A stretch of DNA of 64,000 nucleotides. Origin: an uncultured Candidatus Saccharibacteria bacterium. GTDB lineage: Bacteria > Patescibacteriota > Minisyncoccia > Phycocordibacterales > JACNGX01. A program made the translations under genes and the position numbers. Of this stretch, positions 2,598 to 29,196 are shown in pieces. The stretch is from the NCBI GenBank assembly GCA_964621395.1, contig CAZULS010000002.1, forward strand, positions 170,252 to 234,251, written 5' to 3'. How positions within the stretch are numbered: position 1 is the first letter of the stretch; each line of letters opens with the position of its first letter. A model generated the notes under the pieces. The model did not search any database. It was not told where the DNA came from and saw nothing but the letters and a program-made list of their open reading frames with translations.

Positions 2598-2600
2598 ATT

Positions 2601-2969: not shown

Positions 2970-3161
2970 AATTCCTTGTTCTTTATGTTGCGATGATTTT
3001 TACCGATACTTATAATAAATCCTCATAAGTTTTTGTCAAGCCCACGAAGTGGCGTTCTAACAACTACTCACTAAAAACTAACAACTAAACTATGGTATAC
3101 TATATCCAAGTTATATTACCCTTTTCTCGAAACTCGATACTCGTAACTCGCGACTCTTTTT

Positions 3162-15748: not shown

Positions 15749-16099
15749 ATGCCGTTTAAAACAATAGAAGGTTTTCCTTCGGATAAATGCCGAGAGGCAA
15801 GAGAATTGAAGGAATTTATTAAAGAAACAGTCGCTGGAGAGACAGCTTTGAAGCTCAACAAGGAATCGGTCAAGGTGAATTTTATTGCATCGATGAACGA
15901 TTTCTATCCTGGCTTTCCGCCACCTGAGGCGGTGAAGATAACCATAGATATTTGGGATCTGCCTGGTCGCGAGTTTAAACATTTCAAAGCTGTTTGTAAA
16001 AAAATAGCCGAGAAGACCCGTGAATTAGTAGGTCTTGGTATGCCTATTATGGTCTTTCCGAAGCTTTTCGACGGAGTTTCCTTTTGTCCTATTTTCTAA
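15749..16099 (+). CDS. hypothetical protein
   Basis: Perfect RBS AAAGGAGG 8 nt upstream of ATG 15749 (MPFKTIEGFPSDK...). 116 aa with no recognisable family. Confidence 0.5.
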   Translation: MPFKTIEGFPSDKCREARELKEFIKETVAGETALKLNKESVKVNFIASMNDFYPGFPPPEAVKITIDIWDLPGREFKHFKAVCKKIAEKTRELVGLGMPIMVFPKLFDGVSFCPIF

Positions 16100-16116
16100 T
16101 TCCTAACTTCTAAATG

Positions 16117-17238
16117 CTAAATTACTTTTCCCCCTCCCATACACACATCACCATCATAGACGACGAGTGATTGGCCGGGTACTGCCAAGTTGGGTGCGCG
16201 GAAGGAAACGAGAGTCTCATTCTCCGAAATATGCTCCAGTGTGCAGGGAATAACCTCTCCACGATAGCGGATTTGAGCACCATGTTTCTTCCCTTCTTTT
16301 GGTGCTATGCCCGTCCAATGAATTGCGTCAATGCGCATTTCTTTCGTCTCCCAATGCGCCATATCAGGCTCATGGGCCACGGTGATTGTGTTTTCTTTCA
16401 TATTCTTGGCGACGACATAATGCGGCGCGTCATCCGTACCTTTCTTGATAATGGTAAAGCCGTGTCGCTGACCGAGGGTGAAGAAATGTGCCCCGTCGTG
16501 GACACCGATATGGTTACCCTCTCTGTCGAGTACGCTTCCCTCTTTTGGATCAATATAGTATGAGAGAAATTCTTTCAAATCAATGTGTCCGATGAAGCAC
16601 AGTCCTTGGCTGTCTTTGCGTGTGGCTGTGGGGAGATCAAATTCTTTTGCGAGAGCTCGCACTTCGCTTTTTTCATATCCTCCCACGGGAAAGAGGACGC
16701 GCGAAAGCTCATTCTGCCCAAGCGTCCAGAGGAAATATGACTGGTCTTTATTGGCATCTTTTCCACGGCGGAGTCGATACTCATCGCTCCCTTTCTTGAA
16801 AAACCCTCTTTTCTCCGGTGAGGCAATACGCGCGTAATGCCCTGTTGCCACAAAATCCGCACCTTCCCTAAGCGCATGCTCAAGAAAAGCACCAAATTTC
16901 ACATGCTTATTACACAGCACGTCCGGATTGGGTACACGCCCGCTCGCATATTCGGCAATCATGTCATCAACAATCTCTTTTTTGTATGTTTCAGAAAGAT
17001 CGAGCACCTCAAAAGGAATATCGAGATGTGTCGCCACCTTCTCCGCTTCTCTGCGATCGTCCTCTTGCGTGCACGGCATCCACGACGGTGACCACACACG
17101 AATAAACACACCGCGTACATCATACCCGGCCTCCTGCAAAAGCGACGCCGATACCGAAGAATCAACACCCCCCGACATCCCGACAAACACTTTTGGCTTA
17201 GTCGAGGTAGATAGATTTGTAGTAGAGGTGTTCATCAT
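16117..17238 (-). CDS. mnmA: tRNA-specific 2-thiouridylase MnmA
   Basis: PP-loop VFVGMSGGVDSSVSASLL, the catalytic Cys region and the C-terminal beta-barrel. The start was chosen at MMNTSTT (the ORF track extends to 17400, overlapping mltG). Confidence 0.9.
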   Translation of the reverse strand: MMNTSTTNLSTSTKPKVFVGMSGGVDSSVSASLLQEAGYDVRGVFIRVWSPSWMPCTQEDDRREAEKVATHLDIPFEVLDLSETYKKEIVDDMIAEYASGRVPNPDVLCNKHVKFGAFLEHALREGADFVATGHYARIASPEKRGFFKKGSDEYRLRRGKDANKDQSYFLWTLGQNELSRVLFPVGGYEKSEVRALAKEFDLPTATRKDSQGLCFIGHIDLKEFLSYYIDPKEGSVLDREGNHIGVHDGAHFFTLGQRHGFTIIKKGTDDAPHYVVAKNMKENTITVAHEPDMAHWETKEMRIDAIHWTGIAPKEGKKHGAQIRYRGEVIPCTLEHISENETLVSFRAPNLAVPGQSLVVYDGDVCMGGGKVI

Positions 17239-18241
17239 AATTGCGACCGTAGTGGATTTGGCTTTGGAGATCAGAGAGATAGAAATAATACGGGCTTTCT
17301 TCCGGCTCAAGTGCCGCCATGATGGATTCGAGGCCGGGATTGGCAATTGGTCCTTTGGGGAGGCCGGTACGGGTGTAGGTATTGTAATCGGAATCTTCAA
17401 GGAGATCGCTATAGGTCAATTGAAACGTATTTTTATCACGCTCATAAGCAAAAGGGGCATCAACCTGAAGCGGCATGTCGATGTCCATGCGTTTCCAAAG
17501 AATACCGGCAACGATGCGCTTGTCACTGAATGTGATAGCTTCTTTTTCAAGAATAGATGCCATGATGACGATGTCGTGCACACTTTTGTCGGTGTCCTCG
17601 ATCAAGCTCTCAATCATCGGACGTGCTTTTCTGTCAAATATCGTTTCCATATCTGAAATCACTTGCTCGGCTGAAACATTGGGGAGGAATAAATAGGTGT
17701 CGGGGAAGAGAAATCCTTCCTTGTCTTTTGCCTGTTCAATGAATGTGTCTTCGGCTATGGATGGTATGTGGTAGGAAAGAATGATTGCGACATCGTAGAT
17801 GGTTGCTCCCTCGGGGATAGTGACACGAATCGGTGAAAGACCGAATTGCCCATGTGTAACACGCGAGACAACACTCCACACCGATTCGGGAACATCAAAG
17901 AAATAATCGCCATAAAGAACACCGGTATCGGATGCGGTGAGAACGGTAAGTGCTTTAAATATAAATGCCGAGCGAATCACCTCACGTTCCTTGAGTATCT
18001 TGGCGGCTTCTTCCACGGTGGTGCCGTCTTTGATTGACACTAGTGCACCAACCGGAAAGTCTCCCGGCGGTAGAATTGCCATGTGAAAGACGACAAAGAA
18101 GATCAAGCCGGTTGCAGCTCCTGCAAGTGCCGTATAGAGCGGTCGTTTGGGGCGACGAAAGCGGGTATGCGTCCGAAAAAATTCAAGAACCCGATATTGC
18201 ATACGCTCAAGACGCGCGGAAGATTTTTGGGTGGAATACAT
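17198..18241 (-). CDS. mltG: endolytic murein transglycosylase MltG/YceG family
   Basis: An N-terminal TM helix, then the YceG-like domain with GLPKGPIANPG near the C-terminus. The start was chosen at MYSTQK, just downstream of the upstream gene's stop. Confidence 0.75.
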   Translation of the reverse strand: MYSTQKSSARLERMQYRVLEFFRTHTRFRRPKRPLYTALAGAATGLIFFVVFHMAILPPGDFPVGALVSIKDGTTVEEAAKILKEREVIRSAFIFKALTVLTASDTGVLYGDYFFDVPESVWSVVSRVTHGQFGLSPIRVTIPEGATIYDVAIILSYHIPSIAEDTFIEQAKDKEGFLFPDTYLFLPNVSAEQVISDMETIFDRKARPMIESLIEDTDKSVHDIVIMASILEKEAITFSDKRIVAGILWKRMDIDMPLQVDAPFAYERDKNTFQLTYSDLLEDSDYNTYTRTGLPKGPIANPGLESIMAALEPEESPYYFYLSDLQSQIHYGRNYDEHLYYKSIYLD

Positions 18242-18258
18242 ATAACAGCTCTTTTGAA

Positions 18259-19503
18259 TCAAAACGGCAGGTTTGACGGCGGTTCTCCCTTTTGCGATTC
18301 GATGCGTTCGAATGTCGGCGTTTCGGCAACGCTGCCGGGGAAGTGGAAGATTGTCGCGAGTTCTTCCGTATTTAACACAAACGGCTTTCGCGAATAGGGA
18401 GGATGAAAATACCCTCGTGCGCAATACGCATTGAAGATAGCAGCTTTTTTCTTATTGAGACGAGTGCCTTTATAGTCTTGCCAAGGAAAGTCAAAGTTTG
18501 TCGCATTATCGGGCTTAAAGCCGTTGAGGTCGTTGGAGTTGTATTGCTTAAACGATCCCATAAGACCGGGAATAGCTCCTCCGTTGAACGCGTCTCCTTT
18601 GCCAAGATATATCATACGAATGCCGGTGTCAAAACCGAGCTTGCCTGTGCTGCGTTCGATGGCGGCGATTTTTTCCGCTTCCCCTTTCGACATGGCGGTC
18701 GTGGGAGGAAAGGACCCTTCTTTGTCGGGTTTGTTCTTTTTTTTGTATTCCTCTTGTATTTCTTCAACGAGCTTTTCTCCTTCTTTTTGCCAATCACGCT
18801 CACTGCCGAAGATACCAAAAACATTCTTTTTTGTTTTTCTCGTGGCGCAGATGAGTATTTGAATCCATGCCTGTTCCCCTTTTCCTAAGCTTCCCAAATA
18901 CTCAATAACAGCTGTCATCGGGTCAACCTTGTATTCTTCTTTGGGATCTTTATCAAGCCCGTAATCAACATATGTTTTAATCGGATACGGATCATCTTTC
19001 GTGAGGACTACATTTGAGCCGAAGAGTTTCCATTCTGAACCTTCCTGACCGTAGGGAACATGACGCGTGTAATCGACCGCTTCGGTGACTTCCGCCGCTG
19101 GATATTGACCATAGATTTGATTCTCTATAAGCATGCGGAAATCCTCTTCTGTCCAGATGAAGAAACGTACTTTCCCCTCAATAGATACCATTTCGAGCGA
19201 GAACCATGGATATGAGCCTCCTTTTATATATTTGATAAATTGATTTCCTTCACGGAGTGGAAGATGAAGCGCGCCGATAATGATTTCCATGGCGAGCGGT
19301 GATTTATACGTGTCTTTCGGGAGTTTGATTTCAAGGAGGACGCGTTTGCGCTCAAGAATGAATTTTCTTCGGACATACAAAACCCATAATCGAGTAAAGA
19401 CAACGAGGAGCACGGGAGGCAACCAGAAGAGAGCTGTTTCATTCATGAAATACAGCGCATAGATGAGTCCGGTACCGAAGAATGTGATAATACCGTCAAG
19501 CAT
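18259..19503 (-). CDS. hypothetical membrane protein (2 N-terminal TM helices + large soluble domain)
   Basis: 414 aa. No family recognised. It appears co-transcribed with mltG and mnmA. Confidence 0.55.
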   Translation of the reverse strand: MLDGIITFFGTGLIYALYFMNETALFWLPPVLLVVFTRLWVLYVRRKFILERKRVLLEIKLPKDTYKSPLAMEIIIGALHLPLREGNQFIKYIKGGSYPWFSLEMVSIEGKVRFFIWTEEDFRMLIENQIYGQYPAAEVTEAVDYTRHVPYGQEGSEWKLFGSNVVLTKDDPYPIKTYVDYGLDKDPKEEYKVDPMTAVIEYLGSLGKGEQAWIQILICATRKTKKNVFGIFGSERDWQKEGEKLVEEIQEEYKKKNKPDKEGSFPPTTAMSKGEAEKIAAIERSTGKLGFDTGIRMIYLGKGDAFNGGAIPGLMGSFKQYNSNDLNGFKPDNATNFDFPWQDYKGTRLNKKKAAIFNAYCARGYFHPPYSRKPFVLNTEELATIFHFPGSVAETPTFERIESQKGEPPSNLPF

Positions 19504-19624
19504 AGGTCAGGAGATTAGTATATGAGTATGTTAGGAGGTTAGTGAGGCGGCTACGCCGCCTTGAAAACATATTCAGAACTCTTTTATTATACGGTAAAAG
19601 AGCAGGTGATTCCACGGTGGTGGT

Positions 19625-19677
19625 GGACAAAACATACGGCGCGGCGACCGGAGGTCGCCGCGCCGTATGTTTTGTCC
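19625..19677. terminator. long GC-rich hairpin terminator (ggacaaaacatacggcgcggcgacc gga ggtcgccgcgccgtatgttttgtcc)
   Basis: A perfect stem of about 25 bp. Similar GAAG/GGA-loop GC hairpins recur at 4120, 6153, 25832, 45856, 46921 and 49935. Confidence 0.6.
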
Positions 19678-19684
19678 TGGGCGT

Positions 19685-20710
19685 TTACGCAATAGAATAC
19701 CGCCCCTTCGTGTCGCGATTGAAGTATTTCGGATTCTGAAGGTTTACGATAATGGTATTGGGCTTCACGTAGCGTTCTTTCAAAACAAGATCGACGATTT
19801 CATCGCGTGTGAGCGGACCGTGCTTTTCAAGAAGCTGGCGAATCACATCGTGCACCACGCCCGGCATATATCCCCAATCGGTGAGTGCATACAGACCACG
19901 GCCAACAAGCACGAAACGGTCGTCCTTAATGAGCTCATTGTGGCACGTTGCCTTGTGTGCTTTGCGACCGAATGTCTCTTCGATGGCTTTTGCCACTTCA
20001 GAGAAGTGCATCGGATTGCCTTCGCGCCGAATAATCAAGTATGCGAGATCGCGAATGCTTTTGGCGCGCACGCTTGCTGATGCGGCCGGACCCCATTCAC
20101 CGAGAGGGTTCTTATCGATGGTTTTAGCAAGTTTGAGCCAGCGAAGGGCGTTGTCTTCATTTTTGTATTCATCAGCAACATCTTCAAGTGCGTCGAGGAA
20201 TTGTCCAACAAGCTCATTTTCAGGGACGAGTGCATCGCTATCAATTGAGGTGGCAATTTCGCGGAGTGCCCCTTCCACGCGACGAGCGATTTCCGCGTCC
20301 GTAATCCAGCGATGGCGGAATTCAGCATTTTCTTTTTCCTTCATGAAAGGATCACCCAAGACGAGGAAGAAGGTGATGTGATTTTGGACATTAGAATCAG
20401 ACGAGACATAGGAGAGAAGTTCATCTTCAGGCACGATGGCACCGAGCTTGGCAATAACCTCGCGAAGCTCCTCAAAAACCGGATTCGCTTTTTCAAAATG
20501 TTCCGACTTTCGGATAGCGGCAAGTGCGGCATTTTCAATCTGGCGAACACGCTCACGGGTGATGCCGTATTCCTGGCCGATTGCCTCAAGAGTGAGCCCT
20601 TTGTCAGACTCCAAACCAAAGCGCTTCACGACAACGTCGCGTGCACGATCGGAAATCCCCGAAAGGAGTTTCTTCGATATTGTCTTGGGATTAAATGAAA
20701 TGGTTTTCAT
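19685..20710 (-). CDS. sigma-70 region-4 (HTH) domain protein with unknown C-terminal domains
   Basis: At the N-terminus, ISKKLLSGISDRARDVVVKRFGLESDKGLTLEAIGQEYGITRERVRQIENAALAAIRK is a textbook sigma-70 region 4.2. The remaining 270 aa do not resemble regions 1-3 of a sigma factor. Confidence 0.65.
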   Translation of the reverse strand: MKTISFNPKTISKKLLSGISDRARDVVVKRFGLESDKGLTLEAIGQEYGITRERVRQIENAALAAIRKSEHFEKANPVFEELREVIAKLGAIVPEDELLSYVSSDSNVQNHITFFLVLGDPFMKEKENAEFRHRWITDAEIARRVEGALREIATSIDSDALVPENELVGQFLDALEDVADEYKNEDNALRWLKLAKTIDKNPLGEWGPAASASVRAKSIRDLAYLIIRREGNPMHFSEVAKAIEETFGRKAHKATCHNELIKDDRFVLVGRGLYALTDWGYMPGVVHDVIRQLLEKHGPLTRDEIVDLVLKERYVKPNTIIVNLQNPKYFNRDTKGRYSIA

Positions 20711-20824
20711 AAAGATATGATTAAATCTCGTCTGATAAATACTATCCAGAATGTCTATAATTGTCCCTCTAAGATAGCATACCCCCGAAACAGTGTCAAG
20801 CACTGTGTCAAGGGTAGGTGTTCT

Positions 20825-23800
20825 TTATGTCTTTATCACAATATTGACCAACTTTCCGGGAACCGTAATGACCTTGACAATCTCTTTGTTTTCAATGTGT
20901 TTTTGGATTTCGGGGAGTTTTTGTGCCTCCCTCTCAAGCTTATTTGGAGGTGTATCCGCACTCGTTTCAAACGTTCCTCGCACCTTGCCATTGACCTGGA
21001 CAACGATGGTAAGTGTCTCGTCGGCGAGCTTATTCTCATCATAGGAGGGCCATGGAATATCCACCACACTTCCCTCCTCTCCCAAATGCTCTCGAATCTC
21101 TTCAGCGCTATGAGGGCAAAATGGAGCAACGAGCGAGAGGAATGTGAGGTACGTTTCTTTGGAAAGTGTTGATTCTTCCTCAAGTGCATTGGCGAGAATC
21201 ATGAGGGCGGAAATTGCCGTATTGAAGCCAAAGATATCGATGTCTTCCCCCACCTTCTGTATTGTCTTGTGAAGGAGTGTTTCGGTTTTCTTTGGAAGCT
21301 CCGGCGCTTCGTCGGAAACCTTCTCAGCAAGTTTCCACACCCGCTCCACAAATCGTCGGGAGCCCATGATATTCTCCGTGCTCCACTGAGTGTCTTGATC
21401 AAATGCTCCCATAAACATCTCATACACGCGCAATGTATCAGCGCCGTATGTGTTGACGATATCATCAGGATTGATCACATTGCCAAATCGTTTACTCATC
21501 TTTCGGCCGTCTTCGCCGCCGATAAGACCCACGTGCTGGAGTCGGGCAAACGGCTCGCTCTCCGAGACCGCGCCAATATCATGAAGGAATTTATGCCAGA
21601 AACGCGCGTAGATCAAGTGCCGTGTGGCATGCTCGGCACCGCCCACATATGTGTCGACGGGTGACCAATACTTCTCCTTTTCCGGATCAACGAGCGCCGT
21701 GTCATTGTGCGGATCCATGAAGCGCAGATAATACCACGATGAGCCCGCCCACTGCGGCATGGTATTGGTTTCGCGCTTCGCCTTCCCGCCACACTTCGGG
21801 CAGGTGGTGTTGACCCATTCGACAATAGAGGCAAGCGGCGACTCTCCCGTGTCTGTCGGCTCATAGCTTTCAACCTCCGGCAATGTGAGCGGTAATTCAC
21901 TCTCGGGAATTGCCACAGCGCCACACTCTTCACAATGCACGATTGGAATCGGTTCACCCCAGTATCGCTGACGCGAAAAAACCCAGTCGCGGAGCTTGTA
22001 TGTTGTCTTGGAACGACCAACACCTTTCTCTTCCAGCCACGTGGTGATGGCAACGCGTGCCTCCGCCGATGTCATATGCGAGAATTCTCCGGCATCAACG
22101 ACCCAGCCATCGCTCGTAAAAGGAATGCGTCCATCTTTGCGTCTCTCCCATATCGGGAACTCAGCGCAGGCAAGATTCTCTCGCTTCCCTATCTCTTCCC
22201 ACGAAAGCCATGTAGGTGTGTGTTGCGCACGCTCTTCCTCATCCACCTCTTCTTGTGTGTCGTCGACGAGGGTGAAAAGCATGGCGTGCACAAACGCCAA
22301 GCGATTTTCATCCTTGTGTGCTGCAAAGAATTGATTGCGCACCGCTGATCCAAGCGAACGGACAAACTCAATATTGGTGTATCCTGTCTCTTCAATAATC
22401 TCTCTTCGTGCAGCCTCCGGCAAATCTTCCCCTTCATCAACGCCGCCGGTGATAAATGTCGTCCAATTTTGTTTTGGCCACTCCAGGCATAAATACTTGT
22501 CTGTCTTGGGATCATGAACAATGCCATGAATCATCGTACGAGCGACTGTCTCCTTTCCTTCACGAGGAGGGTTTTTCACATCGACAATATCAGGAATAAC
22601 GACATCATTGATTGGGAGGTTGTATTTTTTTGCAAAAGCAAAGTCGCGTTCATCATGTGAGGGCACTGCCATGACCGCACCGCTTCCATAATCACCAAGC
22701 ACATAATCGCCGACGAATACGGGAATATGCTCGCCGTTCGCCGGATTGATTGCTTCAATTCCTTCAATCTTCACACCGGTCTTTTCTTTCCCTTCCGCCG
22801 TGCGTTCGATTTCCGTTTTCTTTCTCGCTGTAGCGACGTAGTCGCGTATGTCGTCGTAATTCGTAATTCTTGATTCATTATTCTCAATCAGTGGATGCTC
22901 CGGCGCTACCACCGCATACGTGCATCCAAAAAGCGTGTCAGCCCGCGTGGTGAAGACGGTGAGACTGTCTGTCACTTCTCTCAGTATCTCTGGAACTTCT
23001 GGAGTCTTTTTTCCGAAATGTCCTTTATCTTCAAAAGTACAAAGTCGTGCATCAAGACCTCTTGCGTTCTCTTCTCCCGCAGAAAAAGGAACCCACTCAT
23101 CATCTTTAGAGTGAATGACGATAAATTCATTGCAGTGTTTTTTGATTTTTGAAAAATCATATCCTGTCTCCGAGAAAAATCCCTTTGATGATTTTTCTGC
23201 TTTTCCGGAATTTGTACTTACGAGTACGACTTTTGCGATTTGTTCTGAATCTTTAAGTTGCTCAAGGTACCGCATAACTGCCACGCCTCCTCGAGAGTGT
23301 CCGACGAGGATGGTGTTTGAGTCTAGTTTTAGGCTGTCTAAAACATCCAGCCATTCTTTGATATCGGGGTCTTCTGGAGACGGAAGCTCGGGAATTTCCA
23401 CCATATAGCCAAGGGACTCTAATTCTTGCGAAATCCACGGATACCATTTCTCTTTCGGAGACGTGTCTTTTCCATGCATGATAATGACACGTCTTTTTTC
23501 TTCAGAAACAATCGGAAAGTCAATTTCTGTTCCCACGCTCTTGCCGATCCAATTACGCTGGGATTCTTTAATTGATTCCGGCCAATCGAGACCTTCCAAA
23601 TCTTCGAGAAGACGGTCAGCATAATCGGTAATGCGAAGTACCCATTGGCGCATTGATTTCTTCTCGGTTTCCGTGCCGCAACGTTCACACATCGTGCCTT
23701 CGAGGTCTTCATTTGCAAGCCCTGTCTTGCACGAAGGACACCAGTTGATCGGCTCATCTGATTCATATGCGAGCCCTTTCTCAAACATTTTCAGAAATGC

Positions 23801-24238
23801 CCATTGTGTCCATTTGTAATACGCTGGATTGGTGGTGTTGATTTCACGTTCCCAATCATAGGAGAGGCCGATGATGGAGAGTTGCTTTTTATATCGCGCG
23901 ACATTCTCTTTCGTACACACTGCCGGATGGGTTTTGGTTTTCAGTGCGTAGTTTTCAGCGGGCAAGCCGAAAGCATCCCATCCCATCGGATGAAGCACAC
24001 TATATCCTTCCATTCTTTTTTTACGTGCGATTACATCGGTGGCAATATAGCCCTTCGGATGACCCACGTGAAGTCCTTGACCCGACGGATACGGAAACAT
24101 ATCCAAAATGTATGCCTTCTTGGGATTTGTGAGACTCTCGGGCGTACGATACACACCCTCCTCTGCCCATTTTTTCTGCCACTTCTTCTCAATGGATACG
24201 TGATCGTATTTCATAGGATTTGTGCACAAGCTGTACAA
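20825..24238 (-). CDS. leuS: leucyl-tRNA synthetase with inserted alpha/beta serine-hydrolase and Nudix hydrolase domains
   Basis: 1137 aa. HMGH (HVGHPKGY), KMSKS (KMSKRFGN), the LeuRS CP1 editing motifs TTRADT and GSGAVMAVPSHDERD, and the anticodon-binding domain. A hydrolase with GHSRGG is inserted at about 22970-23500. A perfect Nudix box GGVDEGEDLPEAARREIIEETGY is inserted at about 22124-22597. Confidence 0.9.
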   Translation of the reverse strand: MYSLCTNPMKYDHVSIEKKWQKKWAEEGVYRTPESLTNPKKAYILDMFPYPSGQGLHVGHPKGYIATDVIARKKRMEGYSVLHPMGWDAFGLPAENYALKTKTHPAVCTKENVARYKKQLSIIGLSYDWEREINTTNPAYYKWTQWAFLKMFEKGLAYESDEPINWCPSCKTGLANEDLEGTMCERCGTETEKKSMRQWVLRITDYADRLLEDLEGLDWPESIKESQRNWIGKSVGTEIDFPIVSEEKRRVIIMHGKDTSPKEKWYPWISQELESLGYMVEIPELPSPEDPDIKEWLDVLDSLKLDSNTILVGHSRGGVAVMRYLEQLKDSEQIAKVVLVSTNSGKAEKSSKGFFSETGYDFSKIKKHCNEFIVIHSKDDEWVPFSAGEENARGLDARLCTFEDKGHFGKKTPEVPEILREVTDSLTVFTTRADTLFGCTYAVVAPEHPLIENNESRITNYDDIRDYVATARKKTEIERTAEGKEKTGVKIEGIEAINPANGEHIPVFVGDYVLGDYGSGAVMAVPSHDERDFAFAKKYNLPINDVVIPDIVDVKNPPREGKETVARTMIHGIVHDPKTDKYLCLEWPKQNWTTFITGGVDEGEDLPEAARREIIEETGYTNIEFVRSLGSAVRNQFFAAHKDENRLAFVHAMLFTLVDDTQEEVDEEERAQHTPTWLSWEEIGKRENLACAEFPIWERRKDGRIPFTSDGWVVDAGEFSHMTSAEARVAITTWLEEKGVGRSKTTYKLRDWVFSRQRYWGEPIPIVHCEECGAVAIPESELPLTLPEVESYEPTDTGESPLASIVEWVNTTCPKCGGKAKRETNTMPQWAGSSWYYLRFMDPHNDTALVDPEKEKYWSPVDTYVGGAEHATRHLIYARFWHKFLHDIGAVSESEPFARLQHVGLIGGEDGRKMSKRFGNVINPDDIVNTYGADTLRVYEMFMGAFDQDTQWSTENIMGSRRFVERVWKLAEKVSDEAPELPKKTETLLHKTIQKVGEDIDIFGFNTAISALMILANALEEESTLSKETYLTFLSLVAPFCPHSAEEIREHLGEEGSVVDIPWPSYDENKLADETLTIVVQVNGKVRGTFETSADTPPNKLEREAQKLPEIQKHIENKEIVKVITVPGKLVNIVIKT

Positions 24239-24310
24239 ACAGTATGAATGATTGTATCAGAGATTTTGTGAAAATAAAAGCACAGATATATCGAAGCACG
24301 TAGCACGAGT

Positions 24311-24364
24311 CGCGCGCCAAAGTTAAGCTTTGGCAATTCTGCCAAAGCTTAACTTTGGCGCGCG
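24311..24364. repeat. family-3 palindromic element, copy 2
   Basis: cgcgcgccaaagttaagctttggcaattctgccaaagcttaactttggcgcgcg. Near-identical to 122-173. Confidence 0.7.
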
Positions 24365-24369
24365 GCTTT

Positions 24370-24535
24370 TCCATCCGCCCGTCATTCCGCACCACCACTC
24401 CACATGTCATCCCGCACTTGATGCGGGATCTACATGTTATGAAACAACTCTTTCGAGATCCCGCATCACCCACGCCCCAGTTTTCAAGAAAAAGGAAAAC
24501 TGAGCGGGGCAAGCGTGCGGGATGACATGGAAAGA
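24370..24535. repeat. cluster of family-1 REP-like palindromes (gtcatcccgcacttgatgcgggatc and variants)
   Basis: At least three units in 165 bp upstream of the leuS start. Confidence 0.6.
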
Positions 24536-24622
24536 AAAAGTGAACAGAAAAACAGCGCGACGCCGAAGGTGCCGCGCTGTTTTTTATACATATTTCATAT
24601 TTCGTTTTTCATATTTCTAATC

Positions 24623-25258
24623 TCATTCTCTAAACTTCCGTATGCCGATAATAATAAGCGCAATCAAGGCAATACCGAGGACGATGACGCGGATATATTC
24701 ATCCATGTCCGACCAATAGCCGATTGAACCGATAATGAGCGCCAAGACACCGCCCAAGGAGAATCCATGCATAATGGCACCAAGACCCGGAATAAGCACC
24801 GCTATAAGGATGAGAATAATACCGAAAGCAATCCATGCAATGAAGACATTGCGTTCATAGAGCTCGCGTGCATCATCGTATGCTCCACGACACGTATAAT
24901 CGGTGTCGCAGTATCCTTCCTGCTCTTGTTCAATAATCGGAATCTCCACTCCTTCGCCAGGTACGGTGCGCTGGATATATTTGTCTTCATACCATTTTCC
25001 TCCCACTTCCTCGCAATCCTCCTGGTTTTCGGGAATAATCTTCACCTGTTTTTCTTCGCAGAAGTCATTATATTCCGGCGACGGATAGGCAAGTTGCACA
25101 ACCGACGCGAAAAAGATATTCACAACGACGATAATAGCCAAAATAAGGGCCCATTTAAGAACAGCCGAAAGAGGTTTCTTCGGTTTCTTTGAGGGAGCCG
25201 CTGAGGAAGAAGTCGGCACTTGCTCTCCCTCAGTGTGTGTTTGTGTGTATTGTTCCAT
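24623..25258 (-). CDS. hypothetical membrane protein
   Basis: 211 aa. One TM helix near the N-terminus, a Cys/Glu-rich extracytoplasmic segment and 3 C-terminal TM helices. Confidence 0.5.
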   Translation of the reverse strand: MEQYTQTHTEGEQVPTSSSAAPSKKPKKPLSAVLKWALILAIIVVVNIFFASVVQLAYPSPEYNDFCEEKQVKIIPENQEDCEEVGGKWYEDKYIQRTVPGEGVEIPIIEQEQEGYCDTDYTCRGAYDDARELYERNVFIAWIAFGIILILIAVLIPGLGAIMHGFSLGGVLALIIGSIGYWSDMDEYIRVIVLGIALIALIIIGIRKFRE

Positions 25259-25376
25259 ATGAATATTATTGTATGCCCCTTAGCCATTTTCGACAAGGTA
25301 TTGACAAAATGGTTCAGATGTGTATAATTGTAGACAAGATGTTCCCTAAGTAAGACTAAACTAAAAAAAGCAAAAG

Positions 25377-25541
25377 GAGTGAGAAAATGAAATACGTATT
25401 CAGCATATTGGCTGGATGCTCCATTGGACTTAGTGTCTTTGGTGGAGTTGACGCATCGCTCGCGAGTGGTGTTCTGGCAATGGGAGTCGCTAGTTGTCTT
25501 ATGACAATTAGCGTCATCATTGACGATGCTGTCGAAAAGCT
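25377..25541 (+). CDS. small hypothetical membrane protein (54 aa)
   Basis: RBS AAAGGAGTGAG 7 nt before the ATG. MKYVFSILAGCSIGLSVFGG... is hydrophobic. It is shorter than the ORF-track cutoff. Confidence 0.4.
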
Positions 25542-25831
25542 GAAAAAGTAAAGAGGAGGGGGAGGGTCAAGAATCTGCTCTCAGCCCTTGAAACGGCGTC
25601 TTCTTACAGGCGCCGTTAGTTTTTAGATAGCCGGTATTACGTCCAGCTTTTTCTTCTGTCTCGCAAATGACGGTGTACACTAGTATGCTGTCATCCCGCA
25701 CTTGATGCGGGATCCAGGCAGAAACAAAGTGGTTCATAAACTCTGGATTCCGGCTCGGGGGCCGGAATGACAAAATATTATGGAGATTCTGAAAGACAAC
25801 GTTGGGATAACGTTGTCCCAACGTTGTCTGG

Positions 25832-25868
25832 AAAAAGCGCGGCGACCGAAGGTCGCCGCGCTTTTTAG
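25832..25868. terminator. bidirectional Rho-independent terminator (aaaaagcgcggcgacc gaag ggtcgccgcgcttttt)
   Basis: A perfect 11-bp GC stem flanked by an A5 run and a T5 run. It is downstream of the minus-strand ychF. Confidence 0.7.
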
Positions 25869-25930
25869 TTTATCGTTTACCGTTATTCGTTTTATTATTT
25901 TTAACGTTTAACATTTAATCTCCTATTCTC

Positions 25931-27031
25931 CTAGATCTTAAACTCCACCACATCCCCGTCCTTCACCACATACTCCTTCCCTTCTGTGCGCAGGAGACCT
26001 TTCTCACGAGCAGCTGCATATGAACCGCTTTCAAGAAGTGTGTCGGAGTGGATCACTTCAGCGCGGATGAATCTATCACGAAAATCGCTGTGGATGGCGG
26101 CACCCGCTTCCGGTGCGGTGGAATGATAGCTCACCGTCCATGCGCGTGTCTCGTCGGCTCCTGTGGTGAAATATGTCATAAGACCAAGGAGTGCATATGC
26201 TCCGCGAATTAAATCATTGACCCCGTCGTCGCTTCCCGCTCCCAGCTCTTCACGAAACATGCTCTTCTCCTCCCCTTCCAAACTTGAAAGTTCATGCTCA
26301 ATACCGGCGTCGACAATCACATGCTGAGCGCCATTATCGGTAAGAAATTGCATCAGTGCTTCATATCGTGGATCTTCGGGTGTGTCGGAGAGATTGGTTG
26401 CGCCCGCTTTCGTATTGAGCACATAGAGCATCGGTTTTGCGGAAATAAAATTAAGATGTTTGACCGCCTCACGATCTTCCTTTGAAAGATCGATAATTGC
26501 CGCACGTTTTCCGGCATCAAATCCTTCCAGAAGTTTTTTGATTGCTTGCTCTTCGAGCTGGGCACTTTTGTCGCCACGTTTGAGTTCACTTGCAAGGCTA
26601 CCGAGACGCTTTTCCGCGCTTGCCATGTCAGCGAGAATAAGCTCCATGTTGATGGTTTCGATATCGCGCACCGGATTAATGGAACCATCGACATGAGTGA
26701 CATTGCCATCCTCAAACATACGCACCACATGCGCAATAGCGTTCACCTCGCGGATATGTGAGAGGAATTGATTGCCCAAACCCTCCCCTTCTGCCGCACC
26801 TTTCACAAGTCCTGCGATATCCACGAATTCAATCGCGGCAGGAATGGTTTTTGCTGATTGCGAGAACAGAGAGAGTTTCCCCAAGCGTTCGTCAGGCACA
26901 GCAACAACACCGACCGACGGATCGATGGTACAAAACGGAAAATTCTCCGCAGGAACGGATTTTTTCGTGAGCGCATTAAAGAGTGTTGACTTACCAACAT
27001 TCGGCAGTCCGACGATTCCGATAGAGAGCAT
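25931..27031 (-). CDS. ychF: ribosome-binding ATPase YchF (Obg-family GTPase)
   Basis: G1 is GLPNVGKSTLFNALT. The C-terminal TGS domain is present (EGKEYVVKDGDVVEFKI). Confidence 0.9.
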   Translation of the reverse strand: MLSIGIVGLPNVGKSTLFNALTKKSVPAENFPFCTIDPSVGVVAVPDERLGKLSLFSQSAKTIPAAIEFVDIAGLVKGAAEGEGLGNQFLSHIREVNAIAHVVRMFEDGNVTHVDGSINPVRDIETINMELILADMASAEKRLGSLASELKRGDKSAQLEEQAIKKLLEGFDAGKRAAIIDLSKEDREAVKHLNFISAKPMLYVLNTKAGATNLSDTPEDPRYEALMQFLTDNGAQHVIVDAGIEHELSSLEGEEKSMFREELGAGSDDGVNDLIRGAYALLGLMTYFTTGADETRAWTVSYHSTAPEAGAAIHSDFRDRFIRAEVIHSDTLLESGSYAAAREKGLLRTEGKEYVVKDGDVVEFKI

Positions 27032-27065
27032 AAAAACGAATTACGAATACATACGAATATACGAA

Positions 27066-27530
27066 TTACGAATGGCCAACCTGCCTTTCACGACCTCTTC
27101 GTATTTGAGCTATACATTCATCTTTGAGGATACCTGTTTCGATATGGATAGGATGCGAAGTATGTTTTTGTACATCAAAAACAGTAATGTATGGATTCAT
27201 ATGCTTCTCGCTCGGTGCGCCGAAATAAAACTGAGTGATCCCCGCTTTAACCGCCGCTGACATACACATAGAACACGATTCTGCGTTACTGAAAAGAAGA
27301 CATCCTTTCAAATCTCTTGTTCCCAATTTCTTACCCGCCTTACGAAGAGCGTTGATTTCGGCGTGTGCAGTGGGGTCATTGTGTGTCTTTGTCGTGTTAT
27401 ATGCGGCGACGATAATGGTTCCGTGCATGTCAGCAATAATTGCTCCAAATGGTGCACTGCTTTCTTGTATACCTTTCTCTGCCTCTTTCATTGTACGGCG
27501 AATCAGTTTTTCTTTCTCAGTATCTTTCAT
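27066..27530 (-). CDS. CDA-fold nucleoside/tRNA adenosine deaminase family protein
   Basis: Zinc-binding HAE (HAEINALR) and C..C (CSMCMSAAVKAG) motifs of the cytidine/deoxycytidylate deaminase superfamily, TadA/guanine-deaminase-like. Confidence 0.75.
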   Translation of the reverse strand: MKDTEKEKLIRRTMKEAEKGIQESSAPFGAIIADMHGTIIVAAYNTTKTHNDPTAHAEINALRKAGKKLGTRDLKGCLLFSNAESCSMCMSAAVKAGITQFYFGAPSEKHMNPYITVFDVQKHTSHPIHIETGILKDECIAQIRRGRERQVGHS

Positions 27531-27533
27531 AAT

Positions 27534-27692
27534 TTAAGGAGTATCTTCAGTATATAATTCCACCGCTTCTTTTAGTGCGGACATTGCCTCTTTCCGAGAG
27601 TTGCCGAAACTTGAAACGCCGGTGTCAGGATTGAGCGCAACAAACATTTCTCCTTCTTTCCATATGCGACTTTTAATTGGTGTCGAGTTCAT
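27534..27692 (-). CDS. HicB-like / UPF0150-family small protein (52 aa)
   Basis: Translation MNSTPIKSRIWKEGEMFVALNPDTGVSSFGNSRKEAMSALKEAVELYTEDTP resembles HicB/UPF0150 antitoxin N-domains. The start is 4 nt after the upstream gene's stop. It is below the ORF-track cutoff. Confidence 0.45.
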   Translation of the reverse strand: MNSTPIKSRIWKEGEMFVALNPDTGVSSFGNSRKEAMSALKEAVELYTEDTP

Positions 27693-27695
27693 AGT

Positions 27696-28388
27696 CTACG
27701 CCACCTGTGCAAAAATGACAACGTAATTTTTTCCGAATGTTTTGGCGCATTTCGGACATGCGGTATAGTAGAAATACATCTTTTTGAGTTCCTTGTTCTG
27801 CGAGCCGACATATTCTTCCATCTCCTGTATCCATTGACGCATATTGCTGTACGGTCCTTCAAATACTTTTGTGAGGAAGGTTCCCGACATGCTCGCCATC
27901 TCACATCCGGGCACCTCGCGATCTACTTCCAGATATGCGTCGGCGCCCCAGAGGGATGTTTCGTCTGAGAGCATGATACCGTTTTCAGGGTATGCTTCAG
28001 CGGCTTCCACCTTTGTGTGCATGCGACCCATAACACTTCCGAAATTAAGCGGCATGTGAAGAAAAGAACGAATATGGTCTTTCACAAAAAGCTTGTTGTC
28101 CCACATAAACTCCTTCCCATCAAAATCTTCCGGATTGATGAGTGCACAGCATCCCGTTTGCGCATTGTCGTAATCGGAGCCAGTCTCACTGAAAATCGCG
28201 CAGGAAGAAAAAAATGTGTTAAAGAGCTGCGCTTGGCAGTTCTCGCACCTACATTGCGGCTGCACCTTGCCGCTCGACTGTGCCGCACAAGAGTGCGGCA
28301 CAGTCTCCGCAACTACGGTTCGCACGCAATCTATGCGCGAGAACAAGCCATTTTCAGTGAGACTGGCTCCGGTTTCTGATAGTTTCAT
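27696..28388 (-). CDS. hypothetical Cys-rich protein (putative Zn-ribbon pairs)
   Basis: 230 aa. CRCENC near the N-terminus and CPKC near the C-terminus. No family recognised. Confidence 0.5.
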   Translation of the reverse strand: MKLSETGASLTENGLFSRIDCVRTVVAETVPHSCAAQSSGKVQPQCRCENCQAQLFNTFFSSCAIFSETGSDYDNAQTGCCALINPEDFDGKEFMWDNKLFVKDHIRSFLHMPLNFGSVMGRMHTKVEAAEAYPENGIMLSDETSLWGADAYLEVDREVPGCEMASMSGTFLTKVFEGPYSNMRQWIQEMEEYVGSQNKELKKMYFYYTACPKCAKTFGKNYVVIFAQVA

Positions 28389-28472
28389 ATAGATAACGAT
28401 AAACTATAAATAAATAAACGATAAAAAGTCATCGAGTATGATCATCATCATTCGACATCAAGCAACTAGCTA

Positions 28473-28712
28473 CTAGCGTCTAGGTTGTCCCATTGCGCGC
28501 TGGAGTTCTTCCTTGTATTTCGGCATCACGGCAAATGTTGCCGCCATCTGATCTTTCCCCTTTTTCATTTCCGCCTTGATATCAGCGGAGATTTTCTGGA
28601 AAAGCTCAGGATTCTTTTCCACGGCAGTGAGAATGGCATCCTGCTGATCCTGTGGCATCCCTTTCATTTGGGAACCAATCATCTTCTTCATGAGCATTGA
28701 TTTGAGTGACAT
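28473..28712 (-). CDS. hypothetical small helical protein
   Basis: 79 aa, K/E/M-rich. No family recognised. Confidence 0.35.
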   Translation of the reverse strand: MSLKSMLMKKMIGSQMKGMPQDQQDAILTAVEKNPELFQKISADIKAEMKKGKDQMAATFAVMPKYKEELQRAMGQPRR

Positions 28713-28812
28713 AGGTGTAAAATAAAATAAATGAAAAAATATTATACCACACTTTTTTCAATTTTTTAAAGCCGGACTTTGTTTTTGGTGAAATTATGTG
28801 GTGTTATCCGTA

Positions 28813-29196
28813 TTATCCGAGCACCTGACGAATTTTTCCGAGAACATCCGTGATACTCCAATCGGATTTAACCAGATAATCCACCTTTGGATAGCTGGTC
28901 ACTTCGGCAACATACGACATATCGCTCATATTTGTGAGCATGATAATGGGAATGTGTTCTGTTGCCTCATTATTGCGAATTTCTTTTAAAGCGGCGCGAC
29001 CATCCATATTGGGCATAAGGATATCAAGAAGGATGAGATCGGGAGTATGAGCGATTGCCTGAGCAACACCTTCTTGTCCGTCTTTTGCTTCGATAGCATT
29101 GAATCCTTCGTGAGTGAGTGTGTCAACAACAGCTCGGCGAAGCGGTTCTTCATCTTCAACGATGAGCACTGTTTTATGTGAAGTGGTGTCTGTCAT
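28813..29196 (-). CDS. stand-alone response-regulator receiver (CheY-like) protein
   Basis: VLIVEDEEPLRR..DLILLDILMPNMDG..K fits the REC domain with phospho-Asp and Lys. Confidence 0.8.
   Translation of the reverse strand: MTDTTSHKTVLIVEDEEPLRRAVVDTLTHEGFNAIEAKDGQEGVAQAIAHTPDLILLDILMPNMDGRAALKEIRNNEATEHIPIIMLTNMSDMSYVAEVTSYPKVDYLVKSDWSITDVLGKIRQVLG

What the first reader, a model, noticed from the sequence alone, without database searches (positions are those of the whole stretch)
20825..24238. Leucyl-tRNA synthetase carrying two extra catalytic-looking domains: an alpha/beta serine hydrolase and a Nudix hydrolase
The 1137-aa LeuRS retains every canonical block: HMGH, KMSKS, and the CP1 editing motifs TTRADT and GSGAVMAVPSHDERD. 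It has two extra insertions of about 180 aa and about 150 aa. Insert 1 (about 22970-23500) lies between the catalytic-core block NWIGKSVGTEIDFPIV and the start of CP1. It has the RBBP9/YdeN-type serine-hydrolase layout: a MHGKD oxyanion region, the nucleophile elbow GHSRGG, and later Asp (HSKDDEWVP) and His (DKGHF). Insert 2 (about 22124-22597) lies between KYNLPI and the KMSKS-proximal core. It has a perfect Nudix box GGVDEGEDLPEAARREIIEETGY (Gx5Ex7REUxEExGU). The CP1 editing domain is still present, so these are additions and not replacements. Aminoacyl-tRNA synthetases generate Ap4A as a side product, and Nudix enzymes are the classical Ap4A and NDP-X hydrolases. A covalent LeuRS-Nudix link would therefore be mechanistically meaningful, as would an extra esterase next to the editing site. 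I am not aware of this architecture being described.
Basis: partly seen in the sequence, partly recalled or inferred. Interest (0 to 1): 0.85.

Follow-up and report, generated by a model that had tools for sequence, protein, structure and literature searches.

The report
LeuRS with embedded Nudix and esterase
A leucyl-tRNA synthetase from a candidate-phyla-radiation (CPR) bacterium has two extra, apparently active hydrolase domains built into its proofreading domain, and this is one case of a widespread but seemingly undescribed CPR habit of attaching a dedicated Nudix enzyme to tRNA synthetases.

Summary
Window 20825-24238 (-) is one uninterrupted LeuRS ORF (TIGR00396, 985 bits). Two extra domains sit inside the CP1 editing domain.

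- **Insert 1 (aa 246-417):** a YdeN/RBBP9-type serine hydrolase (Pfam E=3e-19; PDB 1uxo E=7e-24; model TM 0.89) with an intact triad.

Both fold alone with pLDDT of about 94, and the CP1 editing motifs are retained.

The architecture is not unique. Of 120 close LeuRSs, all from CPR/Patescibacteria, 115 carry this Nudix subfamily (up to three copies) and 43 carry the hydrolase. Some also carry HAD or DUF559 domains, spread over five insertion hot-spots.

The Nudix subfamily tracks aaRSs. It is embedded in LeuRS, it occurs as a free-standing gene directly upstream of leuS (once next to an insert-free LeuRS), and it is embedded in two ProRSs. Its dN/dS of 0.034 is below that of the LeuRS core.

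Insert 1 is a recent lateral gain. It is absent from a ~94% nucleotide-identical syntenic sister gene, has low GC3, and is closest to free-standing CPR hydrolases.

The likely role is cis clearance of adenylation by-products (ApnN), with the hydrolase as an optional acyl-ester hydrolase. Neither substrate was tested. I found no paper describing this.

The parts
20825..24238 (-). leuS ORF, 1137 aa from the TTG; the probable true start is the ATG at 24212-24214, giving 1129 aa
   Evidence: TIGR00396 984.7 bits; P0001 100% identical, 1129 aa
23549..24214 (-). N-terminal half of the class I catalytic core with the ZN1 knuckles (aa 9-230); HIGH motif = HVGH at 24059-24070
   Evidence: (aligns to Tt LeuRS 3-223)
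21998..23548 (-). CP1 editing domain (aa ~231-747), interrupted by the two inserts. Domain limits are taken from Tt LeuRS 224-417 (from memory) mapped through the alignment
   Evidence: (PF13603, 176.9 bits)
22988..23503 (-). Insert 1: YdeN/RBBP9-type alpha/beta serine hydrolase domain (aa 246-417), placed between Tt LeuRS residues 242 and 243
   Evidence: 1uxo E=7.4e-24; RBBP9 E~8e-19; pLDDT 94.9; TM 0.89 / 0.83
23285..23302 (-). Nucleophile elbow GHSRGG (Ser315). The rest of the catalytic set is HG at aa 255-256 (within 23465-23479), Asp379/380 (within 23087-23113) and His407 (within 23015-23029)
   Evidence: (H, S, R, G, G, D, D invariant and His at >=90% in 68 sequences)
22934..22951 (-). 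CP1 threonine-rich editing motif TTRADT, about a dozen residues downstream of insert 1
22643..22687 (-). CP1 editing motif GSGAVMAVPSHDERD, containing the conserved editing Asp
22118..22597 (-). Insert 2: Nudix hydrolase domain of a CPR aaRS-associated subfamily (aa 548-707), replacing the Tt LeuRS 363-377 loop
22379..22447 (-). Nudix box GGVDEGEDLPEAARREIIEETGY (Gx5Ex7REUxEExG-Y)
   Evidence: strict box in 128 of 154 related domains
22301..22318 (-). Subfamily signature HKDENR (K and N-R conserved at >=90%)
20828..21997 (-). C-terminal half of the catalytic core (ZN2 knuckles CEEC/CPKC; KMSKS motif = KMSKR at 21488-21502), anticodon-binding domain (20948-21277) and C-terminal domain. The leucine-specific domain of Tt LeuRS (577-637) is absent

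Best explanation
This is the real, single-polypeptide LeuRS of a Patescibacteria (CPR) bacterium. Two surface loops of its CP1 editing domain each carry an autonomously folding, probably active hydrolase domain.

**Insert 2 (Nudix).** It belongs to a distinct CPR Nudix subfamily that is functionally tied to aminoacyl-tRNA synthetases. It is ancient in this LeuRS clade and under stronger purifying selection than the synthetase core. The most likely job (inferred) is to hydrolyse, in cis, a nucleotide by-product of the adenylation reaction. The candidates are dinucleoside polyphosphates such as Ap4A/ApnN, which form when enzyme-bound aminoacyl-AMP reacts with ATP or another NTP. Hydrolysis would recycle adenine nucleotides and stop alarmone or cap-precursor build-up in an organism with minimal nucleotide metabolism.

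**Insert 1 (serine hydrolase).** It is a YdeN/RBBP9-type serine hydrolase, a family whose human member is an aminopeptidase that needs a free alpha-amine. It sits about a dozen residues upstream of the threonine-rich editing motif. It was acquired very recently in this lineage, probably by recombination with a foreign leuS allele or hydrolase gene. It is most likely an optional acyl- or aminoacyl-ester hydrolase that supplements LeuRS and is not required by it.

**What is shown.** The domain identities, intact catalytic motifs, independent folding, insertion points, distribution, gene-neighbourhood association, selection and recent gain.

**What is inferred.** Enzymatic activity, the substrates, and any coupling to the synthetic or editing sites.
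For: - **Domain identity and integrity:**
- **Insertion points inside CP1:**
- **Canonical editing motifs kept whatever the inserts:**
- **Nudix box conserved** at >=90% per position in 111 embedded copies, with the strict box present in 128 of 154 domains.
- **Selection:** Nudix dN/dS is 0.034 against 0.065-0.072 for the LeuRS core, measured against the sister strain.
- **Subfamily specificity:** 177 representative clusters score E<=1e-30, and 106 of the top 150 carry LeuRS motifs.
- **Rosetta-stone pattern:** free-standing members lie 1-2 nt upstream of leuS in 2 of 5 loci examined. In one of them the LeuRS has an uninterrupted CP1.
- **Same subfamily in other positions and hosts:** 25 sequences carry a 170-370 aa insertion at a second LeuRS site, and the ones scanned hold one or two copies of this Nudix. 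It is also inside two independent ProRSs.
- **Structural and profile neighbours** are enriched for ApnA hydrolases, RppH and decapping enzymes.
- **aaRSs are the main ApnN producers** (PMC7705103).
- **Insert 1 is recent:** it is absent from the ~94% nucleotide-identical syntenic gene, where a 17-19-aa linker takes its place. It is absent from the 8 nearest LeuRS cores. Its GC3 is 0.355 against 0.47-0.57. It is 56-59% identical to free-standing CPR hydrolases but only 28-39% identical to most LeuRS-embedded ones.
- **RBBP9 biochemistry:** PMC8866121.
Against: - No substrate was tested.
- Some related LeuRSs have no Nudix, either embedded or within 4 kb (P0070, P0024). Three of five free-standing Nudix genes are not next to leuS.
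- The same loops host unrelated domains (HAD, DUF559 nuclease, a second hydrolase). This argues for structural permissiveness.
- Insert 1 is dispensable between near-identical strains. The two free-standing homologues examined are not linked to leuS. It also lacks RBBP9's alpha-amine anchor Glu108, having Lys at the aligned position.
- The ProRS-embedded copies have a partly degenerate Nudix box.
- No 3D coordinates were available, so distances between active sites are unknown.
Confidence: 0.6

Rival explanations
1. Permissive-loop hitch-hiking. LeuRS surface loops in CPR bacteria simply tolerate insertions. Free-standing housekeeping hydrolase genes have fused into an essential, constitutively expressed gene, through genome streamlining or co-expression. 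They do jobs unrelated to leucylation or editing.
For: - There are five insertion hot-spots and at least four unrelated domain families, including a DUF559 nuclease and a HAD phosphatase.
- Insert 1 is present or absent between ~94% nucleotide-identical strains.
- Free-standing Ser hydrolases are abundant in Patescibacteria, and the two examined are not linked to leuS.
- Some LeuRSs lack everything.
Against: - The Nudix is one specific subfamily, found overwhelmingly in or next to aaRS genes.
- It recurs at two different LeuRS sites, in ProRS, and as an upstream operon partner of an insert-free LeuRS.
- It is more constrained than the LeuRS core.
- This rival is more credible for insert 1 than for insert 2.
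Confidence: 0.22
2. The Nudix domain acts on RNA and not on free nucleotides. It would be an RppH-like pyrophosphohydrolase or decapping enzyme (5'-ppp, Np4A or NAD caps), tethered to a tRNA-binding enzyme so that it processes tRNA or other RNA 5' ends.
Against: The scores are no better than for ApnA or NTP hydrolases, and the RppH model score is far below cut-off. Mature tRNA 5' ends are monophosphates generated by RNase P (general knowledge). Free-standing members exist without any RNA-binding partner.
Confidence: 0.12
3. The inserted domains are non-catalytic. They would act as structural, ligand-sensing or protein/tRNA-docking modules, as in the Nudix folds of NrtR, MutY or mitoribosomal L46.
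Against: In the window protein and most relatives, the full Nudix box and the Ser-Asp-His triad with its oxyanion HG are intact and conserved at >=90%. dN/dS is very low.
Confidence: 0.05
4. Artefact or selfish element: a mis-assembly or chimera, frameshifted separate genes, or an intein-like mobile insertion.
For: Insert 1 has anomalous GC3 and is a strain-level indel. A nuclease domain (DUF559) occupies the same site in P0054.
Against: - The ORF is continuous.
- The identical protein occurs on two contigs (sources NCBI and Logan).
- The architecture recurs in more than 100 divergent sequences.
- The junctions are clean and in frame.
- There are no intein boundary residues: no Cys/Ser/Thr at the insert N-terminus and no His-Asn at the C-terminus.
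- Pfam finds no Hint or intein domain.
Confidence: 0.01

Closest known systems
Bacterial-type LeuRS with CP1 editing domain (T. thermophilus 1H3N/2BYT; E. coli 4AQ7)
   Same: The match covers the full length (E=1.5e-225 to 1h3n). HIGH and KMSKS variants, the Zn knuckles, the CP1 T-rich and HDxRD editing motifs, and the anticodon-binding and C-terminal domains are all present.
   Different: A 172-aa hydrolase sits between Tt residues 242 and 243. A 160-aa Nudix replaces Tt 363-377. The leucine-specific domain (Tt 577-637) is missing.
YdeN (B. subtilis, PDB 1UXO) / human RBBP9 serine hydrolases (Pfam PF06821)
   Same: Sequence E=7e-24 and 8e-19; model TM 0.89 and 0.83. The HG oxyanion motif, the GxSxG elbow, Asp and His all align. 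The domain is the same size, about 180 aa.
   Different: It is embedded in a loop of another enzyme. RBBP9's alpha-amine anchor Glu108 is Lys at the aligned position. The elbow is an invariant GHSRGG in the CPR clade. The substrate is unknown, and YdeN itself is uncharacterised.
Nudix dinucleoside-polyphosphate hydrolases and RppH/NudH (e.g. T. thermophilus Ndx1, Aquifex Ap4A hydrolase 3I7U, lupin 1F3Y, M. tuberculosis Rv2985, E. coli RppH 4S2W/7SP3)
   Different: It is not a member of any curated subfamily: RppH NCBIfam scores 26 bits against a cut-off of 116. It has its own hKxxNR signature and an N-terminal extension. The best structural match is the uncharacterised E. faecalis 2AZW.
aaRSs carrying an extra enzyme domain, and free-standing trans-editing or clean-up factors (NCBIfam NF040702 'IleRS, N-acetyltransferase domain-containing'; AlaX, YbaK, DTD; the mammalian LysRS-Ap4A-NUDT2 axis)
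   Same: The concept is the same: an accessory catalytic module associated with an aaRS. NF040702 is listed. The Ap4A-producer / Nudix-hydrolase pairing is known in trans (PMC7705103, PMC4856261).
   Different: Here the hydrolases are inserted inside the CP1 domain rather than appended. They belong to the Nudix, alpha/beta-hydrolase and HAD superfamilies, none of which is a known editing fold. A producer-hydrolase pair would be covalent.

Membership tests
Bacterial leucyl-tRNA synthetase (TIGR00396 leuS_bact) | Whole-protein score above the curated equivalog cut-off | tested here: met
   984.7 bits against a cut-off of 548.4
Bacterial leucyl-tRNA synthetase (TIGR00396 leuS_bact) | Class I signature motifs HIGH and KMSKS | tested here: met
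   HVGH at aa 57-60 and KMSKR at aa 913-917; both are accepted variants
Bacterial leucyl-tRNA synthetase (TIGR00396 leuS_bact) | CP1 editing domain with the T-rich motif and the conserved Asp | tested here: met
   PF13603 at 176.9 bits; TTRADT and SHDERD align to Tt TTRPDT and AHDQRD
Bacterial leucyl-tRNA synthetase (TIGR00396 leuS_bact) | Leucylation and editing activity | not testable with these tools
   Requires biochemistry
Nudix hydrolase superfamily (PF00293) | Nudix box Gx5Ex7REUxEExGU | tested here: met
   GGVDEGEDLPEAARREIIEETGY at aa 598-620. The last position is Y, not an aliphatic residue. The box is conserved at >=90% in 111 homologues
Nudix hydrolase superfamily (PF00293) | Pfam gathering score and Nudix fold | tested here: met
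Asymmetric Ap4A/ApnA hydrolase or RppH (NudH) subfamily | Score above the curated subfamily model cut-off | tested here: not met
   The best RppH NCBIfam model scores 26.2 bits against a cut-off of 116
Asymmetric Ap4A/ApnA hydrolase or RppH (NudH) subfamily | Aromatic residue (Tyr) about 16-18 residues after the Nudix box (criterion recalled from Dunn et al. 1999, not verified here) | tested here: inconclusive
   The query has F at +17 and +18. Many homologues have Y/F ('EYFAAHK'). The criterion comes from memory
Asymmetric Ap4A/ApnA hydrolase or RppH (NudH) subfamily | Hydrolysis of ApnA or of 5'-ppp / Np4-capped RNA | not testable with these tools
   Requires an enzyme assay
Ser_hydrolase PF06821 (YdeN/RBBP9) | Pfam gathering score and a close match to the solved members | tested here: met
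   69.9 bits against 22; 1uxo E=7.4e-24; TM 0.89
Ser_hydrolase PF06821 (YdeN/RBBP9) | Ser-Asp-His triad and oxyanion HG | tested here: met
   S315, D379/380, H407 and H255-G256 align to YdeN and RBBP9. They are invariant or at >=90% in 68 CPR homologues
RBBP9-type aromatic aminopeptidase | Alpha-amine anchor Glu108 (with Ser76 and Tyr99) of RBBP9 | tested here: not met
   In the HMMER alignment, Glu108 aligns to Lys and Ser76 aligns to Arg316 (residues named in PMC8866121)
Intein / Hint-domain mobile insertion | Cys/Ser/Thr at the insert N-terminus, His-Asn plus a nucleophile at the C-terminal junction, and a Hint domain | tested here: not met
   The junctions read ...SEE|KRRV... and ...EVTDS|LTVF..., and ...LPIN|DVVI... 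and ...RIPFTSDG. Pfam finds no Hint or intein domain

The most novel reading that the evidence does not exclude
CPR bacteria have turned LeuRS, and occasionally ProRS, into a covalent multi-hydrolase 'clean-up platform'.

A dedicated aaRS-associated Nudix subfamily would destroy ApnN or other adenylation side-products at their source. The YdeN/RBBP9-type serine hydrolase, with the HAD domain in some relatives, would act as additional, previously unknown editing or salvage sites working on aminoacyl esters, adenylates or nucleotides.

This would be a new class of aaRS accessory catalytic domains. They would be exchangeable by recombination between leuS alleles and interchangeable with operon-encoded stand-alone versions.
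Probability: 0.3. Interest if true: 0.85.

Novelty: new variant of a known kind. Interest (0 to 1): 0.72.

Why it matters
**New accessory folds for aaRSs.** Accessory domains usually reveal new biology, such as editing, signalling or alarmone production. Here three house-cleaning hydrolase superfamilies (Nudix, alpha/beta-hydrolase, HAD) are built into the editing and catalytic domains of an essential synthetase. None of them is known as an aaRS editing fold. This holds across a huge, uncultivated bacterial radiation.

**A testable Ap4A question.** The Nudix case has the classic Rosetta-stone signature of fused, split-operon and second-host (ProRS) forms. It points to a direct physical coupling between the enzyme that makes Ap4A-type dinucleotides and the one that destroys them. 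How cells control aaRS-derived ApnN is a long-standing question, and this protein makes it directly testable with one recombinant construct.

**A natural experiment in domain insertion.** A 172-aa catalytic domain was gained in frame between strains that differ by about 6% at the DNA level.

**Annotation.** These proteins are currently labelled variously 'LeuRS', 'class I tRNA ligase family protein' or 'alpha/beta fold hydrolase'.

Tried and rejected
- **Word-index homologue search with the Nudix insert alone** returned nothing. This is a tool limitation. The exhaustive HMMER search found 177 clusters at E<=1e-30.
- **The search for related loci with the Nudix alignment** failed because no stretch was conserved enough. 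I replaced it with a single-sequence query spanning CP1, Nudix and core.
- **Paralogues in the window:** tblastn of both inserts and of the core found none.
- **RNA leader:** Rfam found no T-box or other leader upstream of leuS, and only one tRNA-Ala in the window.
- **Intein, mis-assembly or frameshift:** rejected.
- **'The esterase replaces a defective editing site':** rejected, because the editing motifs are intact in all architectures.
- **'The Nudix is LeuRS-editing specific':** weakened by the ProRS examples.
- **Insert-free LeuRSs always have an adjacent Nudix:** not true for P0070 or P0024.
- **Literature:** eight searches for a prior description found nothing relevant.
- **Active-site geometry:** a full-length model was not attempted because the tool returns no coordinates.

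Full report
**1. Observation**

The ORF listing shows one uninterrupted ORF at 20825..24238 on the minus strand, 1137 aa from a TTG. The identical public protein P0001 is 1129 aa. M9 ('MKYDH') aligns with residue 3 of T. thermophilus LeuRS. The true start is therefore probably the ATG at 24212-24214.

All quoted motifs are present at the stated positions, with two small corrections: HIGH is HVGH and KMSKS is KMSKR.

Pfam finds tRNA-synt_1, the LeuRS editing domain PF13603 and Anticodon_1. Above their gathering cut-offs it also finds Ser_hydrolase PF06821 (aa 251-410, E=3.3e-19) and NUDIX PF00293 (aa 588-687, E=4.8e-13). NCBIfam leuS_bact scores 984.7 bits against a cut-off of 548.

**2. Anatomy**

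I aligned the protein to T. thermophilus LeuRS (1h3n, E=1.5e-225).
- Insert 1 (aa 246-417; window 22988-23503) falls between Tt residues 242 and 243. This is the hairpin just before the threonine-rich editing motif, and TTRADT starts about a dozen residues after the insert.
- Insert 2 (aa 548-707; window 22118-22597) replaces the short Tt 363-377 loop after 'KYGLPI'.

Both inserts therefore lie inside CP1. The query also lacks the leucine-specific domain, Tt 577-637.

- **Insert 1:** it matches B. subtilis YdeN (1uxo, E=7.4e-24) and human RBBP9 (E about 8e-19). The oxyanion HG, the GHSRGG nucleophile elbow, the SKDD Asp and the GHF His all align.
- **Insert 2:** it is a divergent Nudix. Single-sequence PDB hits reach only about 1e-3. 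A 40-sequence profile reaches about 1e-8 to the AvrM14 decapping effectors, 2azw, and the lupin and Aquifex Ap4A hydrolases.

AlphaFold2 models of each insert alone are confident: pLDDT 94.9 with pTM 0.91, and pLDDT 93.6 with pTM 0.86. The inserts are autonomous folds.
- **Insert 1, Foldseek:** YdeN at TM 0.89 and RBBP9, including its Phe complex, at about 0.83.

**3. Distribution**

The 119 best LeuRS homologues all come from CPR/Patescibacteria assemblies, named Paceibacterota, Yonath-, Moranii-, Woese- and Vogelbacteria among others. Scanning them with profiles built here gives the following tallies, counted over 120 sequences including the query.

| Feature | Count |
|---|---|
| At least one Nudix of this subfamily | 115 |
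| Two or three Nudix copies | 28 |
| At least one YdeN-like hydrolase | 43 |
| T-rich CP1 motif retained | 120 |
| HDxRD motif retained | 119 |
| Nudix domains with the strict box | 128 of 154 |
| Hydrolase domains with the GxSxG elbow | 43 of 47 |

Five insertion hot-spots exist:
- **After Q216:** 25 sequences have an insertion of 170-370 aa. The ones scanned hold one or two Nudix copies.
- **The insert-1 site:** one or two hydrolases, or a DUF559 nuclease in P0054.
- **The insert-2 site:** Nudix.
- **After Q772-776:** a hydrolase in P0028; unknown segments of about 130 aa in others.
- **After Q816:** a HAD phosphatase in P0013.

In GTDB species representatives, matches that include the Nudix insert are confined to genomes labelled Patescibacteria, Paceibacterota, Saccharibacteria or Gracilibacteria, apart from one 'uncultured bacterium' and one MAG labelled Bdellovibrionales. 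LeuRSs of other phyla lack the segment. A protein with both inserts has been public since 2015 (UniProt A0A0G0RJC7).

**4. The Nudix is an aaRS-associated subfamily**

An exhaustive HMMER search of 1.84 billion representative proteins with the insert-2 profile gives 177 clusters at E<=1e-30. Of the top 150, 106 carry LeuRS motifs, and eight of the ten mid-length motif-less hits scanned with Pfam are CP1-Nudix fragments. About 25 are genuine free-standing proteins of 154-207 aa. These have their own start and end and the same GGxExGE...REx2EETGy...hKxxNR...W signature.

I examined five free-standing loci.
- **P0264:** 1 nt upstream of a Nudix-bearing LeuRS, in a locus syntenic with this window.
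- **P0314:** 2 nt upstream of a LeuRS whose CP1 is uninterrupted, matching 185 of 185 Pfam profile positions with no Nudix. This is a split version of the fusion.
- **The other three:** elsewhere, next to Fpg/SpoU, next to another Nudix, or isolated.

Unexpectedly, P0366 is an archaeal/eukaryote-type ProRS with the same subfamily (141 bits) inserted between its anticodon-binding and C-terminal domains. A second ProRS-Nudix, 69% identical and from another sample, is at L098, while closer ProRS relatives lack the segment. The ProRS copies have a partly degenerate box (KE or NE instead of RE).

Against the ~94% nucleotide-identical sister gene, the Nudix region has dN/dS 0.034, compared with 0.065-0.072 for the three LeuRS core regions.

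Not every relative has a Nudix. P0070 and P0024 have none embedded or within 4 kb.

**5. Insert 1 is a recent lateral gain**

L001 is a syntenic contig carrying the 96% (amino-acid) identical LeuRS P0002. It has a 17-19-residue low-complexity linker (...TSPKSQKTNNTEKSNEDTH...) exactly where the window has the 172-aa hydrolase. The junctions are clean and in frame, and divergence is elevated only over about 15-25 nt on either side.

- **Nearest cores lack it:** the eight LeuRSs with the most similar cores (71-96%) all lack insert 1.
- **Nearest copy sits in a more distant LeuRS:** the most similar embedded copy (P0008, 65%) is in a LeuRS whose core is only 57% identical.
- **Free-standing relatives are the next closest:** Patescibacteria hydrolases of about 180 aa are 50-59% identical over their full length.
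- **Tree placement:** in a neighbour-joining tree, Q plus P0008 lie among the free-standing proteins, apart from the main clade of 31 embedded copies, which are 28-39% identical to Q. The free-standing set was selected by similarity to Q, so the tree is only indicative.
- **Composition:** insert 1 has GC3 of 0.355 against 0.47-0.57 in the rest of the gene.
- **Mosaic genomes:** the window and L001 share blocks at 85-94% identity, interspersed with unalignable segments.

Together these results indicate recombinational acquisition, and probably more than one independent capture of a YdeN-like gene into the same CP1 hairpin. Two free-standing hydrolase loci show no link to leuS. One lies between rplI and rpmA near gltX, and the other is in a variable region.

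**6. Mechanism**

*Shown:* a canonical LeuRS with an intact editing site and two intact-looking hydrolase domains in CP1 loops.

*Inferred, Nudix.* aaRSs are the principal source of Ap4A/ApnN, through attack of ATP or another NTP on enzyme-bound aminoacyl-AMP (PMC7705103). Nudix enzymes are classical ApnN hydrolases. This Nudix subfamily is tied to two aaRSs of different classes, and what those two enzymes share is adenylate chemistry, not CP1 editing. Its nearest profile and structure neighbours are enriched for ApnA hydrolases and RppH. I therefore favour cis hydrolysis of adenylation by-products. I put functional coupling to the aaRS at about 0.7 and ApnN as the substrate at about 0.35. The main alternative is RNA 5'-end chemistry.

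*Inferred, hydrolase.* RBBP9 is a serine aminopeptidase that requires a free alpha-amine (PMC8866121). An aminoacyl-ester or aminoacyl-adenylate substrate is therefore chemically reasonable for a domain placed beside the editing pocket. Three things argue for an optional accessory, or simple hitch-hiking:
- the RBBP9 amine-anchoring Glu108 is not conserved;
- the domain is dispensable between near-identical strains;
- unrelated domains use the same loop.

**7. Novelty and verdict**

Searches of the full-text library found no description of a LeuRS-Nudix, LeuRS-hydrolase or ProRS-Nudix architecture. The sequences themselves are numerous in public databases, with automatic labels.

The general concept of an aaRS with accessory catalytic modules is known, for example NCBIfam's IleRS-GNAT model. 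The folds involved, their insertion inside CP1, their modular exchange and the fused/split/second-host pattern are new. I therefore rate it a new variant of a known kind. It is a real feature of high interest, with the function inferred but not demonstrated.

Noticed in passing
L097:2906-4837 (P0366) and L098:1168-3093: Two independent archaeal/eukaryote-type prolyl-tRNA synthetases, 69% identical and from different samples, carry the same Nudix subfamily between the anticodon-binding and C-terminal domains. Their Nudix box is partly degenerate (KE or NE instead of RE). The closest ProRS relatives lack the segment.
   Followed up: partly
L088:3451-3936 with 3939-5303; L089:492-977 with 980-3217: A free-standing Nudix of the LeuRS-associated subfamily (P0314) lies 2 nt upstream of a LeuRS whose CP1 domain has no Nudix insert. 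This is a split-gene counterpart of the fusion. P0264 is similarly 1 nt upstream of a LeuRS that does carry the insert.
   Followed up: yes
Homologues P0009, P0013, P0007, P0024, P0028, P0054, P0067: Related CPR LeuRSs reach 1300-1558 aa. They carry up to three Nudix domains, two serine-hydrolase domains, a HAD phosphatase domain (P0013 aa 998-1150) or a DUF559/Vsr-like nuclease domain (P0054 aa 266-367, at the insert-1 site). There are five recurrent insertion hot-spots. The ~130-aa inserts after Q773 (for example P0020) have no Pfam match.
   Followed up: partly
window ~21488-21520 (aa ~906-917): This LeuRS lacks the leucine-specific domain, which lies just before KMSKS in T. thermophilus LeuRS (Tt 577-637). 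Only about 7 residues separate the flanking conserved blocks.
   Followed up: no
window 16000-29000 versus L001: The sister-strain contig is mosaic relative to the window. Blocks at 85-94% nucleotide identity (leuS, the sigma-like gene, ychF, mnmA) alternate with segments that do not align by blastn (the 211-aa membrane-protein gene, DUF8128, yceG). Two L001 genes are absent from the window: a 306-aa gene immediately upstream of leuS (L001:4899-5819) and an IS200-type Y1 transposase (L001:12619-13305).
   Followed up: partly
window 24212-24238: The mechanical ORF starts at a TTG (24238), but the public annotation and the alignment to solved LeuRSs favour the ATG at 24212-24214 (1129 aa). No obvious Shine-Dalgarno sequence precedes either codon.
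   Followed up: partly
L082:5001-5543 (P0127): A free-standing YdeN-like hydrolase, 54% identical to insert 1, sits between ribosomal protein genes L9 and L27 and about 2 kb from a GluRS-like gene. Another, P0143 (L084), sits in a variable region with Bro-N and a DNA methylase.
   Followed up: no
window 24239-24622 and the whole window: Rfam finds no T-box or other family in the 384-nt region upstream of leuS. The only RNA gene in the 64 kb window is one tRNA-Ala(TGC) at 50525-50599 (-).
   Followed up: yes
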